A DNA stretch of 39,443 nt from a virus (lineage: Duplodnaviria > Caudoviricetes). Below the pieces are notes generated by a model that saw only the letters and a list, made by a program, of their open reading frames with translations, did no database searches and was not told where the DNA came from. The stretch is from positions 1-39,443 of the IMG/VR virus record IMGVR_UViG_3300046060_000085; one strand, written 5' to 3'. Positions 4,694 through 39,210 of this stretch are shown piece after piece (position 1 is the stretch's first letter; every line of letters starts with the position of its first letter). Position numbers and translations under genes: made by a program.

Positions 4694-5110
4694 TTACTCA
4701 CCTCCGTTACCCTGGAGTTTGCCTTTGAACGAGTTCATGAGGCGCTGGAGTTGCTCGGCGATGAGCTGGACGCCGTCGTTGGTCAGCTCGTAGTGGTTGG
4801 TGCGCTTGTCGAGTTCGCTCTTCTCGACGAGGCCGTGCTCGACGAGGGTGTCGAGGTTGGGGTAGAGGCGGCCGTGGTTGACCTCCTCGCCGAGCCATTC
4901 GTCGGTTTCGAGGATGTCCTTGATGGCGAGTCCCATCGCGCCCGCGGGGGCGCGGCCGTCGTACCGGCCGCGCTGGCAACCGCGCAGAACGAACAGGATG
5001 TTCGTCTGGAACGCGGTGAGGTCGGTATCCGAGACGGCCTCGCTGGCGTTCTCGAACTCGAAGCCCGAGTCGTCGGACTCCGTTTCGGCGTCGGCCTGTG
5101 CGGCGGTCAT
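4694..5110 (-). CDS. PadR-family wHTH transcriptional regulator
   Basis: DLTAFQTNIL...GLAIKDILE...EVNHGRLYPNLDTLVEHGLVEKSELDKRTNHYELT; ATG at 5110 overlaps the upstream stop. Confidence 0.88.
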   Translation of the reverse strand: MTAAQADAETESDDSGFEFENASEAVSDTDLTAFQTNILFVLRGCQRGRYDGRAPAGAMGLAIKDILETDEWLGEEVNHGRLYPNLDTLVEHGLVEKSELDKRTNHYELTNDGVQLIAEQLQRLMNSFKGKLQGNGGE

Positions 5111-5499
5111 CGCGACCCTCCCATCGAGACCGTGCGGCCGCAGGTCGTGCAACGCTCTTCGATCACGGCCTTCCCGCGAGCGTCGGTCCGGCCGTAGCGT
5201 CGGGTCCGTGGGTGCGAGCACCAGATGCCGACGTAGCCGCCGTCGGCGACGATTTGGTCGCCGCGGTCGATGGACTGGGTGCCAGCAGGGTTATCCGGAC
5301 TGGATGAGAACTGTTCGATTGGACGGGACTCCTGGGGTGAATGTTCTCCCGTCTGTGCATCCGCGATGGCACGCGGGTGCGTTTTCTGAGAGGCCCCCGC
5401 TAGGGAGTCGTTACTGGTTCGGTCGCCAGCGCGGCGACGGGTTGCTTCCGCTGTTCGATGGGCCTTATTCTTAAGACCCCTGATAGTGTCGTTCGACAT
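5107..5499 (-). CDS. Hypothetical protein, first gene of leftward operon 1
   Basis: Preceded by GGGAG and a structured leader; IVADGG motif; CSH...CTTC. Confidence 0.65.
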   Translation of the reverse strand: MSNDTIRGLKNKAHRTAEATRRRAGDRTSNDSLAGASQKTHPRAIADAQTGEHSPQESRPIEQFSSSPDNPAGTQSIDRGDQIVADGGYVGIWCSHPRTRRYGRTDARGKAVIEERCTTCGRTVSMGGSR

Positions 5500-5597
5500 G
5501 GCTTCTAAACTCCCTTGGTGGGATTGGAAGCCAAGTCCGACGTGCTTGTGACACGTCGGGCACCTTTTGACGGCACCCGAGAGGACTTGCTTCCAAT
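5498..5597. ncRNA. Structured 5' leader of operon 1 with a putative cis-antisense sRNA (+, ~5498-5568)
   Basis: Inverted repeats 5499-5508/5524-5533, 5523-5538/5583-5597, 5537-44/5552-59, 5556-64/5572-80. Confidence 0.55.
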
Positions 5598-5614: not shown

Positions 5615-5692
5615 GGCCTATAATGTTACCGGTGGTAGCACCCACAGTGGAGGATGCCGATAGCCCTATTTGGGATGCTACCAACAGTATCA
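5615..5692. promoter_or_regulatory. Divergent promoter region with two palindromic operators
   Basis: Minus-strand TATA (ATTATAG, ~5618-5624); TGTTACC-N3-GGTAGCA at 5624-5640; TGCTACC-N3-AGTATCA at 5676-5692. Confidence 0.6.
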
Positions 5693-5695
5693 TGT

Positions 5696-6004
5696 ATGAC
5701 CCGCTTTTCGGATAGGATGATGCTGCTGCAGCTCCCGACGGACCAGTTGATTCTCGAGGAGCTGCAGGACGGTCGGAATCTCGGTGCGAACATCGCAGAG
5801 GAGATCGACCGACATCGAAAGACGGTGACTAAGCGCCTGAACCAACTCGAAGACTACGAGCTCGTTGAGAACATCGGCAGGGGAGTCTACGAAATCACCC
5901 TGCGCGGCGAAATTGCTCTTGAGCATATCGACGAGTACGACAGAGACACGACAGAGTTGGAAGAGCTCATCGAAGAGGAGTACGAACAGCGGAGTCAAGA
6001 CTGA
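5696..6004 (+). CDS. Winged-HTH repressor
   Basis: TDQLILEELQDGRNLGANIAEEIDRHRKTVTKRLNQLEDYELVENIGRGVYEIT; start at 5696 or 5717. Confidence 0.85.
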   Translation: MTRFSDRMMLLQLPTDQLILEELQDGRNLGANIAEEIDRHRKTVTKRLNQLEDYELVENIGRGVYEITLRGEIALEHIDEYDRDTTELEELIEEEYEQRSQD

Positions 6005-9386: not shown

Positions 9387-9649
9387 CAGTCATCACCCTC
9401 GTTCTCGGGTTGGATGGCTCGCAAGCGGTCTGACCACCCGCGGTCTTCCAGACGAGTCAGCGAGGCTTCGAAATCTGTAGCGGCTTCGGTCGCGTTCTCA
9501 CCACGCCCTTCGATGAGGAGTTCGTCCTGGTCTCGCGTGCCGGTGCCGCGTTTCAGCTTGGCACGAATCTTCGTGCCGTGGTCGAGCGGCCGCTTCTCAC
9601 CGCGCTCGTACCCGCTGGGGTCGGCGTCCGTCTCGTCGTGTTCGGCCAT
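9386..9649 (-). CDS. Conserved halovirus-type small protein
   Basis: IRAKLKRGTGTRDQD motif. Confidence 0.75.
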   Translation of the reverse strand: MAEHDETDADPSGYERGEKRPLDHGTKIRAKLKRGTGTRDQDELLIEGRGENATEAATDFEASLTRLEDRGWSDRLRAIQPENEGDD

Positions 9650-10233
9650 CAGGCATCACCGTCCTCGTCTTCGACGAGTTTGACACTCGCGTTGTGGCCA
9701 ACCTTCCGCAAGTCACGCTGTGGGCCCTTCTCTACAGCGCCGGTCGTGGCCCAGACGTGGTAGACGTCGCCAGCGTCGGTCCGAATGCCGAGTTTGTAGA
9801 CGCTGCCGGAACGTGTGGGGAGCCAGTTCACGACTTCGCCCGTCCGCTCTTGGGGGTCGTGCTGGCTGTTCTGGGGGTCGTAGGTGACCGACACGCGCGT
9901 GCCGAGCGGGAGATCCGCGTGCTCGGCAGTGGTGCCCGCCGCGATGGTGATCGTGGCGGCGGGGACGGTGGCGGTCGCGCCATTGTCGCCGCGGAGCACG
10001 ATGCAGTCGCCGGCTGTCGTGACGTCGTGCGGACTGGTGACACGGGCGGTCCGACCCGCGTCGTCGTGGAGGACGACCGCGGTTGCGCCCGCGTCGAACT
10101 GGCGTGCGACGGCGTCGATGACGGTCTCGGCGTCGATTATGGCCGAGATATCTCGTGGGGCAGGGAGTTCGCGGTAGATTGCCCCGGTCGGTGCTTCGGT
10201 AGCGTTTTCTGCGTTCACGTTCTTGGTTGACAT
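9649..10233 (-). CDS. Hypothetical protein, first gene of leftward operon 2
   Basis: ATG at 10233 preceded by GGTGA; beta-rich C-terminal domain. Confidence 0.7.
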   Translation of the reverse strand: MSTKNVNAENATEAPTGAIYRELPAPRDISAIIDAETVIDAVARQFDAGATAVVLHDDAGRTARVTSPHDVTTAGDCIVLRGDNGATATVPAATITIAAGTTAEHADLPLGTRVSVTYDPQNSQHDPQERTGEVVNWLPTRSGSVYKLGIRTDAGDVYHVWATTGAVEKGPQRDLRKVGHNASVKLVEDEDGDA

Positions 10234-10308
10234 GCTTCGTCTCACCGTGGCGAAGCGCGAGGTCGGGCGCTCCATCGCCCGGCCGAGATTTTCCCGGCGT
10301 CGCGCTTC
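10232..10308. ncRNA. Structured 5' leader of operon 2 with a putative cis-antisense sRNA (+, ~10232-10292)
   Basis: Inverted repeats 10234-41/10249-56, 10252-60/10300-08, 10261-69/10276-84, 10282-88/10292-98. Confidence 0.55.
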
Positions 10309-10332
10309 TTACCCGATAGTATGTGGTGCTTG

Positions 10333-10435
10333 CCCTTATAGTTTGTGTTACAAACTCTTATACATAGCTCTCATCTACAGCTTGTGTCACAAACACTAAG
10401 TCGCGGGCGCACGTCGGTGGATTTGTAATGCAAGC
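10333..10435. promoter_or_regulatory. Divergent promoter with three TTGT-N3-(A/G)CAA operators
   Basis: Operators at 10343-53, 10382-92 and 10423-33; minus-strand TATA CTATAAG at 10335-41. Confidence 0.7.
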
Positions 10436-10451
10436 CAGAGACACAAGCGGT

Positions 10452-10697
10452 ATGGCACTCGACGAAGACGATCTCCGGGAGATCGACAGGGTCATCCTCG
10501 GCTATCTCCAAGAGGGCCGGGTGACGCCCGCCTACTGTCGCGACCGCATCCTCGACGAAGGCGTTCGCTCCGAGATCACCTCGACCTACTGCAGCCAACG
10601 CCTCGGACGCCTCGAAGAACACGACCACGTCCGGAATCTCTACAACACCGGACTCTACGAACTGGTCAGCGATCCCTGCGACGGGACTGGACGCTGA
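10452..10697 (+). CDS. phiH1-repressor-like wHTH protein
   Basis: DRVILGYLQEGRVTP...TYCSQRLGRLEEHDHVRNLYNTGLYELVSDP. Confidence 0.8.
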   Translation: MALDEDDLREIDRVILGYLQEGRVTPAYCRDRILDEGVRSEITSTYCSQRLGRLEEHDHVRNLYNTGLYELVSDPCDGTGR

Positions 10698-10776: not shown

Positions 10777-12571
10777 ATGAGCCTCGAAACCAAAGACCCC
10801 GACACAAACAGCGAGATGACCGACGAACAGACTATCACCGTCGGCGACACCACCGACGGCCAGTCCTACCAGCTCCCCGTCGAGGACGTCCTCACCGGCC
10901 GCGCGTTCGCCACCGGCAAGAGCGGCGCAGGCAAATCCAACACCGGCTCAGTTATCGCAGAAGAACTCCTCACACGCGGCCACCCTCTGCTCATTGTGGA
11001 TACCGACGGCGAGTACTGGGGGCTGAAGGAGGAATACGAAATCCTCCACGTCGGCGCGACCGACGAGTGCGACCTCCAGGTCGGGCCCGAACACGCGGGG
11101 AAGCTCGCCGAGCTCGCGCTCGACCAGCACATCCCGATCATCCTCGACGTCTCCGGCTACGTCGATAGCGACACGAGCGACGCACTCGTCCGGGAGACCG
11201 CCCCAGGAGTTGTTCGCGCGCGAACAGCAGGCGATGCAGCCGTTTTTGATGCTCGTCGAGGAGATCCACGAGTACATCCCGGAGGGCGGCGGTCTTGACG
11301 AGACAGGCGAGATGCTCATCCGGGTCGCGAAGCGCGGCCGGAAGCGCGGCCTCGGCATCATGGGGCTCAGCCAGCGCCCTGCGGACGTTAAGAAGGACTT
11401 CATCACGCAGGCTGATTTCCTCGTCTGGCATCGCCTCACGTGGGACAACGACACCGACGTCGTCAAGCGCGTCGTTGGCAGCGAGTTCGGTGACGAGGTG
11501 CAGGACCTCGCGGACGGCGAAGCGTTCGTGCAGGCCGACTGGAGCGAGGTGGACGTCGAGCGTGTGCAGTTCCGACGAAAGCACACGTTCGACGCGGGCG
11601 CGACGCCTGGCCTCGACGATGTGGCCCGGCCGGAGTTGAAGAGCATCGGCGAGGATCTCGTCGAGGACTTGGACGAGATCTCGGCACGCGAGGAGCGCCG
11701 CCTCGACCGCGTCAGCGAACTCGAAGCCCAGCTGGCGGAGAAAGACGCACGGATTGACGACCTCGAACAGGAACTTGAGAATAAGGAGGATATCGCGGAC
11801 GCCGCCCAGCAGATGGCGGCAGCGCTCCAGCAGGGCACGGACGGGGAGCGCGCGGACGAGGTCCCAGGGGACTGGGAGGAGACACTGGAGGCGAAGAACG
11901 AGCGGATCCACGACCTCCAGGAGGACCTCGCGGCCGTTCGCGAGGAGCGCGACGAGTTGCGGGAGCGCGCCGAGGCGGCCGAATCGGAAGCAGAGCGGCT
12001 GGGGTCCTACCAAGAGCGCGTCGAGCAGGCCGAGGAGATCGAGGAGCAACTAGCGAAGGCCCGTGAGGTCCTCGGCGTGGAGGGTAAGGCCGAGGCTGGC
12101 CAGCCTGGTGCCGCCGACGGAGACAACAGTGAGCTTCGCGCCGAGCTCAACCAGCGCGAGGAGACGATCGCCGAACTGGAGGCGGAGATCGACCGTCTCC
12201 AAGAGCAGGGTTACTCGCTCGACGAGGAGTTCGAATCGAAGATGGACTTCATCCAGCACGAGGCCGTCCGCGAGGAGATTGAGCGCGCGGCCTCGAAGTC
12301 GAAGTGCAAGGCCGACCACACGTGGGACGTTCTCTCGGTGCTGATCGACCAGGAGTCGCCGACTACCGACGAGATTGCGACCTACTGTGACGTCACGAAG
12401 ACGTCAGTCCAGAACATCCTCTCGAAGCTCGCCGAGCAGAACGTCGTCGCGAAGAACACGAAGCGGGGGAAGGCGCGCTACGAGCTGAACGTCGACGGGA
12501 TGCGGAACATCATCCAGCAGCAGCGGAAGCGGAGCGAGATCTCGAACCTCAAAGAGCAGGTGAAGAGCTGA
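10777..12571 (+). pseudogene. HerA/DUF87-like ATPase + coiled coil + wHTH, split by a +1 frameshift at ~11201-11204
   Basis: Walker A GKSGAGKS in the first frame; Walker B MLVEEIHEY and SQRPA in the second; deleting one C from GCCCCAG gives ETAQELFAREQ. Confidence 0.8.
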
Positions 12572-34527: not shown

Positions 34528-34794
34528 CTAACTGTTGATGAGTTCGACGATGATTTCCCGCATTTCGTCGTTGGGGCGTCGCCGGTTCCCCATCTTCCGG
34601 AGAACCGTGAAGTAGAACCGTTGTTCGACAGTCATCTGACTCCACCCGACTTCGTGCGGGCATTCTGGACAGTATATGACTTCTCCGCCATACGCTTTCG
34701 CGCTCATGTCGTGGCCGCATTCCGGACAGGTAAACGCCCCGTCGACTGATTGCATGAACTTGGGTTCGTCGCTGACTTTCGTTCGCCGTAGCAT
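34528..34794 (-). CDS. Zn-ribbon protein (lower GC)
   Basis: CPECG...CPEC. Confidence 0.65.
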   Translation of the reverse strand: MLRRTKVSDEPKFMQSVDGAFTCPECGHDMSAKAYGGEVIYCPECPHEVGWSQMTVEQRFYFTVLRKMGNRRRPNDEMREIIVELINS

Positions 34795-34884: not shown

Positions 34885-37800
34885 TTAGGTTCCGCCTCCT
34901 GGGTCCAACCGCGCCGATCCGAGCTCGTGACGGTTCCCGGAGAGGCCGAACACCTCCCGCGCTACGGGAAGCCAGTCGGTCAGGGATTTGGATTCCTCAA
35001 CGAGAGCCCGCAAGCGCCGGGTTAACGCTACTTCGACGCTGTCGTTACCAGTTAGAACCGATAACGCCTGTGTCAAAGTAGCGATTTCCGCCGTGTAGAC
35101 CACTCCAGACCGCTGTTCGTACGCTCCCGCGTCAAGCAGTCCGATGGCTTCCAGATCGGCTACCCACCGCCGGACCGTGCGCTCCGTGACGTCCAAGCCG
35201 TGGAACTGGGCGAGTCGGTGGATCGCCTCGATGTTGAACTCGACGCCGTCCGCGGTCGCGTCGCCGCCCGTGGTTTCGATGAGTGTCTCAGCGCGGAAGC
35301 CATCGGGGCCGTCCCCCTCGCCGGCGCTCGCGATGACATCCGCAAGATCGAGAGCGCGGTCGGCGACCGGGAGGAGTGCGTGGAGGGGGTCGGCGAGCTC
35401 TTCGAACTGGCAGACCTCGTCGACGGGCACGTCGGTCGGCACGTTCGTCAGCAGGTAGGCGTGCTTGGTCTCGTCGGCGAGCAGCGGCCGAATCCGGTGG
35501 ATGACCTGCTCGAGTTCCTTCTCGCGCGTCTCCTCGAAGAGCTCGCCGACGAGGCCCGTGTAGTGCTTGGTCGGGACCGCCCGCCCACGGCCGTGGTCGT
35601 CTTCGTAGAGGAGCTTGCGGTAGACCGGTGGGTTCGAGCAGTCCTGCCGGGTCGAGTGTTCGGTGCCGCCGACGCGGAGATCGTCGTGGTCCTGGGAGAG
35701 CAGCGCGGCCTCGCGTTCGAGATCTTCGACGTTCGCGTGAGGCGCGCCGAGGCAGACGACGGCATCACATTCCGTCCGGTTGAGGCCGCGAGCAGCGTGA
35801 TAGTGCAGCCACTCGACGGACTCGGGGATGTCGAGTATCTCGCGGGCCTCCTGGCGACCGACGACGAGCAGGTTGTCGTGAACGGTCGCGAGCTTCTCGA
35901 CCGCGCGCTCGACACGCTCGCGGAGGCTCTCGGTCTGCTTGAGCGTCGACCAGTGGTACTGGCCGTTGAGGACTTGCGTCACCTGCAGGTTGGCGTCGAG
36001 CGGCTCGTCACCAGTGACTGCGACGTGATCGGTCGGGACGCCGTAGAGGCCGGCGACTTTCTGGGGAACTGCGGTGGCGTCCAAGACGAGGGGCTTGCTG
36101 GGGAGATCGCTCACCAGTGGGAGTGACTCGTAGGTGAGTCGGGCTCCGTCCTCGATGTCGGCGTGGAGGTAGGCGGAAGCGCGTGCGGCCTCGGCGGTCT
36201 TGCCGACGAGGAAGTCGGTGCGTTCGTCCCAGCCGCAGCCGTCCTCCTGATTACAGACACGCCCACCGTCCTGGTGAGTAAGGTCGCCCCCGCAACGCGG
36301 GCATTGTTCGAGGAAGTCGGACGCGGCGATGGCCTTGCGAGCCTGATCACTCGGAAGTCCGGCCTCCATCGCGGCTGCGAGCAGTGCGTCGACGGCGAGG
36401 GGTTCGCCGTTCCAGTCGTCCTCGCGCATGCGCTTGAGGATGGTTTCGTTGTACTCGAGTTTCGCCTCGGCGAGCGTTTCCGCTACGAGCTCGCGCTCGA
36501 CGACGTAGCAGGTGCGCTTCCGGTAGCCCTCGCTGGGCATGCCCTTGAACTCCTTTTTCGTGGTCTGCTCGACGTCGTCGGGGTCGACGTCTGCGGGAAG
36601 ATCGTCCGGGTCGACCTCGACCGAGATCAGCTCGCCGTCGACCGCTGGCGGATCGATGGCCGCGAGCGTCAATGGCCCATCGGGATTCGTGAGCGCGTCG
36701 ACGAGCCGGTGGGCGAACGCGGCGAGTTCGCCGAGTACGTCGGGAGCACCCGCGTAGTTCCCGATGCCTTCGAGGGCGTTGCCGAGTCGGACGAGGTCCT
36801 CGACCGAGAGATCCTGTTCGGAGCGTAACGCCCCAGGGGTTTCGTCGATGAGGACGTCGCGGTCGGGGCCGTTCGCGGGGTTGCGGATGGTCTTGAGCGT
36901 CTGGTATTCGTGAACGCCGGCGATCTGGTCGGCGCTGGCGGCCTCGGCGAACTGGTCGAGCCACGCGCAGTTGCCGTCCTCGTCATGGCCGGGGAGCTCG
37001 TCGCCGAGGAGGGTGTGTGCGCGGACAGGGCCCAGCTGGTCGGCGAGCGCCTCGTATCGCTTGCGGTCGGGGTGATCCTGCCCGAGGTCGTACACGGGAC
37101 ACACGTGCGCGCAGTCGCCGTTCGGGTGGGTTGGGCAGTCCTCGTCGGCGTGGTCGGCGTCCATGCAAACGGGGTCGCGCTTCTGTGCGCCGCCCTTTAA
37201 GTGGAAGTAGCGGTCGGGAGTGGCGTCGTCTTTGATGAACTCGCGAGCTTTCTCGTGCTTGTCGAAGAGCACGGCGTGGGGGCGGTCGCGAGTTGCCGCG
37301 GCCCGAGCGGCGTTCGTAGTTTTCCCTGCGCCGGCGTCGTCGCCGAAAATGACGGGGCCAGTGGCGTCGAGGAACTCGTCGTAGCGTTCGCCCTCGAGGG
37401 CGGCCCACCGCTCTTCGCGGTCGAACGACTCGGCGTCGCGAACTGGCGGGTCACACTCTTCGACATTCCACTGCGTGTTCGACGCGTTGCGATCTGGAGT
37501 CGTAGTAACCAGTTCGGGGATGTCGAACCCGAGTTCGCGAAGGTGCTCGATGGCCGTGAACCAGAGTTCGCCGCGGGCCCGGCGGGGCGAGGCGTTGCGA
37601 TGGCTCATCTCGCCCATGTGGATGAGGCTCATCACGACGGGGCCGCCGTAGCCGCCTTCGTCGCCAGTGTCCTGCCAGATGCGGTCGTCGACGATGTTCG
37701 CCGTCCCGTTCGCCGACCGCCCCCACGTCGGGGCGAACGCGCGGTAGCCGTCGCTGGTCGACGCGTTGTCGTTCCAGCTAGCGACAATCGTTCGGTTAGC

Positions 37801-39210
37801 AACGCGGCGAGCGTCGAGGCGGTCGAGCGCGGCGAAGACGTCCCGGATGTCGTCAGTAGTCTCCGTCGACGACGTCGCGCTTGGCTGGTAGTCGTCGAGG
37901 TCGTAGTCCTCGCGAGTAGTCGAGACGTCGTCATCCCGGTCGCGCTGGCTGGTGGCGACCTCGTCGTTCGCGTCGAGGAGCGCGTCTAGGACGTCGGCGT
38001 TCCAATCGCGGATCTCGGTCGGGGTGCCGAGGACGTGGTCGCCGGTCGCGACGCACACGCGCTTGCCGGGATAGATCTCGATGGAGGGGAGGTCGTCGTT
38101 GTCTCCCCAGGGCTCGTCGTCGATCTGCCACGCCGCCTGCTTGACCCCGTCGGGGAGATCGCCGCGGTACTGGGCGTGGACGCCCGCGCCGGACTGGGAG
38201 ACGTCGGCGTACGTCAGGCCGAGATGTTCGAGGATCGCCTCGAAGGCGGGGTGAACCTCGCCGGTCTTGCGGTCGCGGACATCGTCCCCGTCGACGTAGA
38301 CGTAGGGGTCGCTCTCCTGTTGGAGGAACGCGCGGCCGTCGAGGCGGTCGTCGACCTCGGCCATCGCGATGGTTTCGCCGTCGACGTAGTGGCCGGTGTA
38401 GCCCCACTTCCAGCGAGCGTCGCAGTCGCACTTCGCGGCGGTGTCGTGGCCGTCTCTGCTACACTCCGCGGGCGCGTTGCGGTCGCCCCACGGCGCGAAC
38501 GGCTTCTTGTCCCGGTGGCCCATCCACTGCTCGCGGTCGAGGAGTTGCTGCGGCCAGACGCCAGACTCGGGAGTGGCGAAGTTGGCCTCGTTCCACCCAG
38601 AGTTGGTCGGTCGTGCATCGTCGGAGCTGAGGTCCTCCGAGATCTCGGGGTCGGAGTGTGCATCGTCGTGGGTATCTTCTGGGGTGTCGCTAGCCGAGTC
38701 GGTCGCGGTGGTAGGTTGGTCGTCGGGGGTGGCGAGACGAATCGCGGGATTCTCGCTGAGGGTGTCGTCGGCGAGTTCGAGGGCGTCGGTCTCGCGGAGG
38801 GCGTCCCGGAACTCGTAGTCGCTGTAGCCGTGCGCTTGGGCTTGCGCAAGGAGTTCGTCGCGGGGGACGGGCGCGAGGATTTCCTCGTGCCCGAGGCGGC
38901 CCTGGGTCTCCCACATTAACTCGATGACGTCGATGTCCGCGTCGGCTTCGTCGCGGTGCGTGCCAGACTGTTCGTCGAGGTCTGAGCGAGACCGTTCTCG
39001 CGACCTTCTACCGTGGTCCGGGGTGCTACTACTTGTGCTTTCGGGCGAATCGGTGGATTCGGAGGTGTCCTCACGGAGGGCGTCCGCGACCGCGGTCGGC
39101 GACGCGTTGAGTGCGCCCGCGAGTTCCGGGACGTCAGCGTCCGGGTGCTGGTCACGATACTGGGCGACGCGCTCGGCGAGCGAAAGGTCGTCCCCCGTCA
39201 AGGCGACCAC
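34885..39210 (-). CDS. Replication protein: primase-polymerase (AEP-like) + SF2-like helicase + wHTH
   Basis: YVYVDGDDV, YADVSQSGAGVH, IEIY; DAGAGKTT, VLIDE, AARGLN, EQVIHRIR; C-terminal ERTVRRWVADLEAIGLL. Confidence 0.82.
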   Translation of the reverse strand: MVALTGDDLSLAERVAQYRDQHPDADVPELAGALNASPTAVADALREDTSESTDSPESTSSSTPDHGRRSRERSRSDLDEQSGTHRDEADADIDVIELMWETQGRLGHEEILAPVPRDELLAQAQAHGYSDYEFRDALRETDALELADDTLSENPAIRLATPDDQPTTATDSASDTPEDTHDDAHSDPEISEDLSSDDARPTNSGWNEANFATPESGVWPQQLLDREQWMGHRDKKPFAPWGDRNAPAECSRDGHDTAAKCDCDARWKWGYTGHYVDGETIAMAEVDDRLDGRAFLQQESDPYVYVDGDDVRDRKTGEVHPAFEAILEHLGLTYADVSQSGAGVHAQYRGDLPDGVKQAAWQIDDEPWGDNDDLPSIEIYPGKRVCVATGDHVLGTPTEIRDWNADVLDALLDANDEVATSQRDRDDDVSTTREDYDLDDYQPSATSSTETTDDIRDVFAALDRLDARRVANRTIVASWNDNASTSDGYRAFAPTWGRSANGTANIVDDRIWQDTGDEGGYGGPVVMSLIHMGEMSHRNASPRRARGELWFTAIEHLRELGFDIPELVTTTPDRNASNTQWNVEECDPPVRDAESFDREERWAALEGERYDEFLDATGPVIFGDDAGAGKTTNAARAAATRDRPHAVLFDKHEKAREFIKDDATPDRYFHLKGGAQKRDPVCMDADHADEDCPTHPNGDCAHVCPVYDLGQDHPDRKRYEALADQLGPVRAHTLLGDELPGHDEDGNCAWLDQFAEAASADQIAGVHEYQTLKTIRNPANGPDRDVLIDETPGALRSEQDLSVEDLVRLGNALEGIGNYAGAPDVLGELAAFAHRLVDALTNPDGPLTLAAIDPPAVDGELISVEVDPDDLPADVDPDDVEQTTKKEFKGMPSEGYRKRTCYVVERELVAETLAEAKLEYNETILKRMREDDWNGEPLAVDALLAAAMEAGLPSDQARKAIAASDFLEQCPRCGGDLTHQDGGRVCNQEDGCGWDERTDFLVGKTAEAARASAYLHADIEDGARLTYESLPLVSDLPSKPLVLDATAVPQKVAGLYGVPTDHVAVTGDEPLDANLQVTQVLNGQYHWSTLKQTESLRERVERAVEKLATVHDNLLVVGRQEAREILDIPESVEWLHYHAARGLNRTECDAVVCLGAPHANVEDLEREAALLSQDHDDLRVGGTEHSTRQDCSNPPVYRKLLYEDDHGRGRAVPTKHYTGLVGELFEETREKELEQVIHRIRPLLADETKHAYLLTNVPTDVPVDEVCQFEELADPLHALLPVADRALDLADVIASAGEGDGPDGFRAETLIETTGGDATADGVEFNIEAIHRLAQFHGLDVTERTVRRWVADLEAIGLLDAGAYEQRSGVVYTAEIATLTQALSVLTGNDSVEVALTRRLRALVEESKSLTDWLPVAREVFGLSGNRHELGSARLDPGGGT

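What the first reader, a model, noticed from the sequence alone, without database searches (positions are those of the whole stretch)
10232..10308. Second leader with the same architecture but little sequence similarity
Seen: the layout matches 5498-5597. A CATG start is followed by the hairpin GCTTCGTC/GGCGAAGC, with the SD GGTGA in its loop; it has a G-U on + and a mismatch on minus. GAAGCGCGA can instead pair perfectly with TCGCGCTTC at the leader 5' end (10300-08). The middle hairpin is favoured on +, a T4 run follows at 10289-92, and the overlapping distal hairpin is favoured on minus. A minus-strand TATA sits ~27 nt upstream of the leader. Both leaders share only CATG(G)CTTC...GAAGC...GCTTC. 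Two independent copies, each facing a wHTH repressor gene, suggest a recurrent module of protein repressor plus RNA switch in haloarchaeal mobile elements. The antisense TATA is weak here.
Basis: partly seen in the sequence, partly recalled or inferred. Interest (0 to 1): 0.75.

Follow-up and report, generated by a model that had tools for sequence, protein, structure and literature searches.

The report
Widespread halovirus antisense-RNA leader lock
This virus of salt-loving archaea carries a short stretch, shared by many related viruses and plasmids, that is predicted to be read in both directions, so that a small antisense RNA would pair with and likely silence the front end of an early viral message, a control so far described for one virus (phiH).

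Summary
The window is a haloarchaeal temperate tailed virus. 10234-10310 is the predicted 5' leader (minus strand) of an early operon facing a phiH-RepR-like winged-helix gene. A sequence-only model finds it in 127 of 430 haloarchaeal genomes, pNRC200, ChaoS9, Humcor1 and HJTV-4; Rfam has no match. Across 95 copies the two start-proximal hairpins carry G-U pairs on the antisense strand, the long-range and distal helices on the leader strand. A BRE/TATA promoter lies inside the first codons, pointing antisense from the base next to the AUG, exactly where phiH T(ant) starts. In published H. salinarum NRC-1 dRNA-seq tables a + strand 5' end maps to that predicted nucleotide (p=0), but as a processed end, not a primary start. 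Best reading: a T(ant)-like antisense/leader lock on top of a protein repressor. Corrections: the two leaders are distant homologues, not independent; the antisense promoter is family-typical; a 60-nt terminator and a leader 'switch' are unsupported; 35 of 95 copies face a non-wHTH gene. One earlier scan note (e1-9743534, other DNA) also invokes T(ant), for a different multi-target RNA.

The parts
10231..10233 (-). ATG of the first gene (9649-10233, 194 aa, no family at curated cut-off) of a leftward early operon
10197..10224 (+). Predicted antisense promoter inside codons 4-13: BRE-like CGGTA 10197-10201, TATA-like GTTTTCT 10204-10210, WW 10223-24
   Evidence: family profile; control ORFs; matrix score 5.2
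10234..10292 (+). Predicted antisense RNA, start at G10234; folds H1+H2; 3' end unknown (10292 is the earliest plausible; it may cover the whole leader or run on)
   Evidence: homologous 5' end in NRC-1
10234..10256 (+). H1, 5'-terminal hairpin of the antisense RNA; its loop is the complement of the SD-like GGTGA (10246-10242)
10261..10284 (+). H2, middle hairpin; full length with U-G on +, inner 6 bp also forms on the leader; loop variable among copies
10282..10298 (-). H3, distal hairpin of the leader (G-U on minus, A-C mismatch on +)
10252..10308 (-). P0, long-range helix 10308-10300 with 10260-10252 closing the leader's three-way junction; predicted to keep SD and AUG open
10234..10310 (-). 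Predicted 77-nt 5' leader, start at 10310
10335..10344 (-). Leader promoter: TATAAG 10340-10335, BRE AA 10344-10343
   Evidence: score 14.3; this copy is in the training set
10343..10433 (.). Three candidate operators TTGTRWYRCAA at 10343, 10382 and 10423, about 40 nt apart, over the leader BRE and the repressor start; none elsewhere in the window; pattern drawn from this region, binding untested
10428..10697 (+). Winged-helix protein, phiH1-repressor-like
   Evidence: PHROG 2440 E 3e-4, same family as phiH1 RepR; model pLDDT 89, top fold hit 3b73 E 9e-3; hhalign to the 5720 repressor 90.7%
5463..5475 (+). Sister cassette: predicted antisense promoter (CTTAAG 5470-75), start G5500
   Evidence: score 6.1
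5497..5596 (-). Sister cassette: leader and ATG of ORF 5107-5499; distant subfamily of the same element
5720..6004 (+). Sister cassette: winged-helix phiH1-repressor-like gene

Best explanation
The element is predicted to be a cis-antisense lock on an early viral operon: a promoter inside the first codons would make a small two-hairpin RNA from the base next to the AUG, which would pair with the mRNA leader and likely block its translation. Shown by sequence and comparison: the two promoters' motifs, strand-specific helices, the divergent regulator gene and the family's spread. Shown in a homologue only: a + strand RNA 5' end at the predicted base. Inferred steps: (1) the winged-helix protein binds three palindromes and holds the leader promoter off; (2) leader that is made folds P0+H3+inner H2 as it is transcribed, which prevents H1 on the mRNA and leaves SD and AUG open, so P0 is an anti-hairpin that offsets the H1 which the antisense RNA's own 5' hairpin imposes on the complementary strand; (3) the antisense RNA pairs with the leader, probably starting at the variable loops, and covers the SD up to the AUG; (4) by analogy with phiH, a host RNase cuts at the duplex ends and removes the leader. 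Induction would raise leader synthesis above the antisense pool. The variable loops would make each cassette specific.
For: Strand asymmetry of non-Watson-Crick pairs, scored symmetrically in 95 copies: P0 49 A-C vs 7 G-T on + (G-U on leader), H1 21 G-T vs 1 A-C; H3 70 vs 9 in 66 copies; H2 U-G in 82 of 85. In 68 representatives under 85% identity: P0 39 vs 5, H1 27 vs 3. H1 pair 15-32 has G 134 against a tree-null maximum of 75 in 100 simulations; 98.1% of H1+H2 cells pair. Antisense promoter: W at -27 in 99% of 95 copies vs 27% of 254 control ORFs, in front of diverse proteins. A matrix trained only on leader promoters peaks at offset 0 on the antisense strand (4.0; background -6.5; 89% of copies above the 95th background percentile) and gives phiH T(ant) 6.0. 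phiH1 record: T(ant) starts at 38732, the base before the ATG at 38733. NRC-1 pNRC200: 5' end at 219774 +, p=0, uncertainty 0, the predicted base; the previous + row is 1.66 kb away. SD 4-mers lie in the H1 interior in 42 of 95 vs 15.5 shuffled. The NRC-1 target gene VNG_6286H has total RNA 34-40 but ribosome-fraction RNA and protein at 1, apparently the floor value, while the HTH gene has both.
Against: No RNA data for this virus. In NRC-1 the 219774 end is TEX-depleted (called a processing site); the TSS table has no call there, and has one at 219797 (p=0, uncertainty 6) assigned to the HTH gene with a 173-nt UTR. I read that as an exonuclease stall before H2 because no promoter scores there (2.7 at most), but that is inference. 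No leader TSS at 21985x was seen in that table (the file was cut when stored). P0 and outer H2 show no significant covariation, and only one H1 pair does (14-33 E 0.29). The H2 U-G was part of my seed patterns and is one conserved position. No clear terminator: longest T run 2-3 in 69 of 85. P0 dominates the predicted leader ensemble in only 52 of 95 copies, H1 in 38, including the NRC-1 copy. In the 18 copies with a 1-nt offset the BRE moves with the ATG, so codon phase is not fully separated from promoter spacing. YUNR loops are not enriched (15 of 42 distinct loops, p 0.06). No sequence homology to phiH1 leaders.
Confidence: 0.68

Rival explanations
1. The + strand transcript is not a free small RNA but the long 5' leader of the repressor mRNA (lambda PRE-like or excludon-like overlap; both recalled). 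One promoter would both antagonise the early leader and establish repressor synthesis. Compatible with the best explanation if read-through is partial.
For: Weak T run after H2. The NRC-1 TSS table assigns a start inside the element to the HTH gene with a 173-nt UTR; the listed + rows between it and the gene are weak (219807, 219828, 219851; p 0.003-0.05). The NRC-1 HTH ATGs score poorly for their own promoter (2.7 at most). phiH T(ant) is annotated as longer than 151 nt.
Against: 87% of 76 divergent ORFs have their own promoter-like signal (best of several ATGs, AT-rich background not matched), including this window's repressor (7.5). phiH1 imm and repR have their own mapped starts.
Confidence: 0.15
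2. Cis-only leader switch: P0 and H1 are alternative folds of the mRNA set by a ligand, protein, salt or temperature, with no functional antisense RNA.
For: P0 and H1 share one arm; family-wide both are populated (52 vs 38 of 95) and removing the 5' arm closes the start region in 86 of 95.
Against: H1 and outer H2 wobble on the antisense strand; conserved antisense promoter; + strand 5' end in NRC-1; in this copy H1 is negligible on the leader.
Confidence: 0.09
3. The antisense RNA activates: a cut at the duplex end next to the AUG would release a leaderless mRNA, which haloarchaea translate well (own knowledge).
For: The predicted antisense start is the base adjacent to the start codon in 71 of 95 copies and one base off in 18, as in phiH.
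Against: Reviews describe the cut phiH T1 as untranslatable (PMC8707807 section 22; PMC4284463 passage). The NRC-1 target gene, where the + RNA end is seen, has ribosome-fraction RNA at 1. Leader SD motifs are conserved.
Confidence: 0.05
4. DNA-level feature (cruciform, protein-binding or recombination site) or chance folding of GC-rich DNA.
For: Inverted repeats pair on both strands; most stem positions are invariant.
Against: Helix-specific G-U versus A-C bias in opposite directions, compensatory change in H1, fixed position against start codons of diverse genes; none of the 66 pattern hits in genome records without an archaeal title passed the three-arm filter.
Confidence: 0.03

Closest known systems
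phiH/phiH1 T1 leader and T(ant) antisense RNA (Stolt and Zillig 1993, not held; seen through GenBank MK002701 notes and passages of PMC4284463, PMC6210493, PMC8707807)
   Same: Antisense start at the base next to the AUG; promoter inside the first codons with like spacing and score; long structured leader whose 5' end pairs downstream; antisense 5' end folds two hairpins; divergent immunity/repressor gene; two such cassettes 4-5 kb apart; repressors in the same PHROG.
   Different: Leader 70-87 nt (85-100 in the 5498 subfamily) against 151 nt; no detectable sequence match; occurs in many genomes, up to 6 copies each, on plasmids as well, with varied downstream genes and at least two unrelated divergent protein families; I found no description of a family or of the strand-specific folds.
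Bacterial cis-antisense translation locks: Tn10 RNA-OUT, R1 CopA/CopT, IncI Inc/repZ, P22 Sar, lambda PRE (all recalled, no call)
   Same: Small hairpin RNA complementary to a structured leader or RBS; variable loops give specificity; second layer beside a protein repressor.
   Different: Archaeal BRE/TATA promoters; no clear U-run terminator; U-turn loops not enriched; no Rfam match; haloarchaeal duplex processing is reported as end-cutting.
HF2 class I/II intergenic repeats (PMC8707807, passages and section 22)
   Same: Conserved non-coding halovirus elements carrying promoters.
   Different: Described as promoter repeats of 29-58 bp without a leader/antisense pair; the two HF2 motifs quoted in the passages do not occur in 10197-10433 (by eye); no alignment was run.

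Membership tests
phiH T(ant)/T1 antisense system | Antisense promoter inside the first gene, start at the base next to the AUG | tested here: met
   Predicted from motifs; geometry identical to MK002701
phiH T(ant)/T1 antisense system | Antisense RNA is made | tested here: inconclusive
   NRC-1 homologue has a + strand 5' end at the predicted base, but TEX-depleted and absent from the TSS table; nothing for this virus
phiH T(ant)/T1 antisense system | Complementary to a long 5' leader of an early transcript, facing a repressor or immunity gene | tested here: met
   Leader promoter and 77-nt leader predicted; repressor in RepR's PHROG; early timing inferred from gene context
phiH T(ant)/T1 antisense system | Antisense RNA spans the whole leader | tested here: inconclusive
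   3' end unknown; weak T run; weak + strand processing call at 219861 near the predicted NRC-1 leader start (p 0.005, uncertainty 5, not filtered in)
phiH T(ant)/T1 antisense system | Acts in trans; duplex ends cut by a host RNase; mRNA untranslatable | not testable with these tools
   Only hints: minus-strand processing call at 219765 (p 1e-6, not filtered in) and low ribosome association
phiH T(ant)/T1 antisense system | Sequence or covariance-model homology to T(ant) | tested here: not met
   No hit at the phiH1 leaders in L043 with R1 or R2 at E<=2
Any Rfam 15 family | Match to a curated model | tested here: not met
   Window: one unrelated hit E 0.62 elsewhere; 10 homologous or phiH1 loci: 0 hits at E<=1
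Kissing-loop antisense RNAs (CopA type) | YUNR U-turn in a recognition loop | tested here: inconclusive
   33 of 85 copies, 15 of 42 distinct loops, p 0.06; this copy has AUGG
Kissing-loop antisense RNAs (CopA type) | Intrinsic terminator U-run after the last hairpin | tested here: not met
   T run of 4 or more in 11 of 85
Riboswitch or attenuator | Conserved ligand-binding core or two near-isoenergetic leader folds | tested here: inconclusive
   Two folds are possible family-wide, not in this copy; loops are variable; ligand binding untestable

The most novel reading that the evidence does not exclude
T(ant) is not a phiH curiosity but one member of a general RNA immunity code of haloarchaeal viruses and plasmids. 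Hundreds of cassettes use one two-faced scaffold whose variable loops set specificity, a host duplex-end RNase executes the cut, and the antisense promoter doubles as a repressor-establishment promoter. It predicts an unreported second antisense RNA over the phiH1 T4 leader, starting at 34729 on the minus strand (promoter score 5.4).
Probability: 0.3. Interest if true: 0.85.

Novelty: new variant of a known kind. Interest (0 to 1): 0.7.

Why it matters
The first archaeal antisense RNA (phiH T(ant)) has had no described family, and its duplex-end RNase is unnamed in the passages I read (PMC4284463, PMC8707807); PMC6210493 says work on phiH stopped in 1994 and calls the topic not fully explored. 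This family gives about a hundred aligned natural variants, an exact promoter and start prediction, and a copy in the genetically tractable H. salinarum NRC-1 with a matching 5' end already in public tables. That makes the mechanism, the specificity code and the RNase directly testable, adds an uncatalogued archaeal ncRNA family, and offers small orthogonal repressor/antisense parts for haloarchaeal genetics.

Tried and rejected
RNA runs: 20 of 24 listed runs hold part of a genome stretch identical to the NRC-1 copy, all as assembled contigs. Eight were laid; 7 of 8 left most or all of the leader uncovered and one spanned it; contigs give no strand, start or level, so nothing is concluded. The A2 repressor alignment found no viral locus. 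blastn with two further members and the 5498 type found no H. volcanii plasmid copy, so no second dRNA-seq organism was tested. The de Almeida aTSS table cannot list 219774 because it lies outside the CDS; it lists 219577 + (p 9e-4) with no 3' end, so processing from a longer antisense RNA is not excluded. In-frame upstream starts are not conserved (10 of 89), so a leader-peptide model was dropped, as was the long ORF 9649-10275. HMM search of solved structures with A1 gave nothing. ESM Atlas and Foldseek did not name the PHROG 26393 protein. Paper searches found no description of this family; the library lacks most subscription papers, and the two Stolt and Zillig 1993 papers are not held. 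R-scape and structure-aware aligners were not available; my tree null is an approximation.

Full report
Context. The 39.4-kb window is a virus record with acidic proteins, an integrase at 1-1332, a Cdc6-like gene, terminase and major head genes: a temperate haloarchaeal tailed virus. It has two divergent control regions. In each a leftward operon starts at a CAT (5497-5499, 10231-10233) and a small rightward gene follows 200 nt away. Both rightward proteins hit PHROG 2440, the family of phiH1 RepR; the 10428 protein folds as a winged helix with the 'PhiH1 repressor-like' structure 3b73 as top hit, E 9e-3.

Observation. The minus strand folds as a three-way junction closed by P0 (z -3.4) and the + strand 10232-10292 as H1+H2 (z -3.9). 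Rfam has no match.

Family. blastn gave an intergenic match in HJTV-4. Pattern scans of viral and genome contigs and repressor neighbourhoods gave 25 seeds. Of 80 genome pattern hits, 14 had archaeal titles; 11 of these and none of the other 66 passed a three-arm filter. A sequence-only model matched 47 of 140, 32 of 151 and 48 of 139 genomes in three haloarchaeal families at E<=0.001. Only about 30 candidates per genome were scored, seed genomes are included, and a few weak hits are not full elements (L236, L239). One genome has 6 copies. Named carriers: H. salinarum pNRC200, ChaoS9, Humcor1. From 121 loci (25 seeds and 96 returned loci, not all matches) came 114 distinct cores; 17 did not parse and 2 lacked the distal arm, leaving 95. 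Downstream proteins are diverse. 76 of 95 have a 55-125 aa divergent ORF. Of 50 scanned (50 of 82 candidates), 13 gave HTH-type Pfam hits; 15 loci match the window's 10428 repressor by tblastn; 35 of 95 carry a different small protein, PHROG 26393, predicted as three helices with no fold match. Whether all chromosomal copies lie in mobile elements was not tested.

Which strand folds. With G-T and A-C scored alike, P0 has 49 A-C and 7 G-T on + (so G-U on the leader), H1 has 21 G-T and 1 A-C, H3 70 A-C and 9 G-T in 66 copies, and outer H2 has T-G in 82 of 85. The bias holds in 68 representatives under 85% identity. On an alignment made without structure, 98.1% of H1+H2 cells pair and 7 of 12 pairs change on both sides. 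Under a tree-aware null only H1 pair 15-32 is clearly significant; 14-33 has E 0.29, and P0 and outer H2 none. The H2 U-G and the GCTTC arms were in my seed patterns, so their invariance is partly by construction; the P0, H3 and H1 biases were not selected on.

Two promoters. Upstream of the leader lies AA/TTTAA/WW; upstream of the G next to CAT, inside the coding region and on the opposite strand, lies CGGWA/TTYWW/WW with the same spacing. W at -27 is 99% against 27% in 254 control ORFs. A matrix trained only on leader promoters peaks at offset 0 on the antisense strand. The window scores 5.2 (10234) and 6.1 (5500). Caveat: in the 18 copies with a one-base offset the BRE follows the ATG.

The known case. 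The phiH1 record places T1 at 38582, T(ant) at 38732 and the ATG at 38733, with imm divergent, and a second cassette repR/T4 4 kb away. T1's 5' end pairs downstream, T(ant)'s 5' end folds two hairpins, and its promoter scores 6.0. Passages of PMC4284463 and section 22 of PMC8707807 say the hybrid is cut by a host RNase at duplex ends, making the mRNA untranslatable. Neither of my models matches the phiH1 leaders: the element works like T(ant) but is not shown to be its homologue.

RNA evidence in a homologue. From the pNRC200 sequence the predicted antisense start is 219774. Supplement Table S3 of PMC8303175 (rows seen, plus main-text passages) lists 219774 +, p=0, uncertainty 0, filtered in; the previous + row is at 218117. 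Against a simple reading, that table holds TEX-depleted ends; the TSS table of PMC6161675 (supplement rows only, file cut) has none at 219774 and has 219797 +, p=0, assigned to the HTH gene. 219797 lies at the foot of H1, just before H2, with no promoter signal. I infer a monophosphorylated RNA from 219774 and an exonuclease stall, but a processed or read-through transcript remains open; PMC6523106 (supplement rows only) lists a weak antisense start 197 nt upstream. The atlas PMC10134880 (supplement rows only, file cut) gives the target gene RNA 34-40 but ribosome-fraction RNA and protein 1.

The two leaders. The 5498 leader has its own subfamily: 9 of the 30 returned loci of 5720-type repressors show it, each with a positive antisense promoter score at offset 0. 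A structured model of the 10232 family ranks 5493-5596 and L303, L295, L294 above background (E 0.004-0.07, rough). Several genomes carry both types 4-5 kb apart (coordinates). So the copies are likely diverged homologues. Predicted cross-duplexes are far weaker than cognate ones (-47 and -54 against -140 and -154 kcal/mol).

Mechanism. Co-transcriptional folding forms H3, inner H2 and P0 before the start region is made; in this copy P0 has probability 0.997 and the start region is 72% unpaired. Family-wide, deleting the 5' arm lets H1 form on the mRNA in 83 of 95 and closes the start in 86 of 95, but P0 wins in only 52 of 95 full leaders. I therefore read P0 as an anti-hairpin rather than a ligand switch. 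SD-like 4-mers sit in the H1 interior in 42 of 95 (15.5 shuffled), so the antisense loop exposes an anti-SD. Three palindromes over the leader BRE and repressor start are candidate operators.

Novelty and score. The kind is known (phiH T(ant); bacterial cis-antisense locks, recalled). I found no description of the family, its two-faced structure or its spread in ten paper searches, in passages of the phiH1 and ChaoS9 genome papers (PMC6210493, PMC6471424), or in Rfam; subscription papers, the 1993 originals and cut supplement files were not seen and may bear on this. Earlier scan notes had no look-alike by sequence; one note on other DNA invokes T(ant) for a multi-target RNA and was not tested. 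New variant of a known kind, interest 0.7.

Noticed in passing
L043:757-933 (phiH1 MK002701 34556-34732): The phiH1 T4 leader (174 nt, z -7.2 for its first 144 nt) has the same 5'-closing helix, and an antisense promoter signal (5.4) at the base before the ATG; the record lists no antisense RNA there.
   Followed up: partly
L180:1201-1404(-) and 34 other loci: A 65-85 aa three-helix protein (PHROG 26393, no Pfam, no fold match, invariant Cys near the C terminus) replaces the wHTH gene opposite 35 of 95 elements; a candidate new repressor or immunity protein.
   Followed up: partly
window 10777-12571: HerA-like ATPase with coiled coil and C-terminal HTH split over two overlapping ORFs (10777-11298, 11234-12571), probably a frameshift or assembly error.
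   Followed up: no
window 5107-5499 and 4694-5110: The first ORF of the sister operon overlaps a PadR-like gene; phiH1 T1 also begins with a PadR-like gene.
   Followed up: no
window 5620-5700: Palindrome-like GTTACC..GGTAGC / GCTACC..AGTATC repeats in front of the 5720 repressor, kept in homologues L292-L303; candidate operators of the second repressor.
   Followed up: no
L271 (ChaoS9 41997-42602): The annotated start of ChaoS9_315 runs through the element, so its start is probably called too far upstream; the paper reports no RepR homologue, but HTH gene ChaoS9_310 faces the element.
   Followed up: no
L292, L293, L297, L301, L314 upstream of the repressor: Further structured leader-like stretches with other arm sequences next to 5720-type repressors; possibly more subfamilies (by eye).
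   Followed up: no
L270:3207-4058 and L003:2683-4350: In pNRC200 and HJTV-4 the HTH gene is followed by annotated toxin-antitoxin genes.
   Followed up: no
window 34885-39210: 1441-aa acidic ORF with no Pfam match at E 0.01, probably a replication protein.
   Followed up: no
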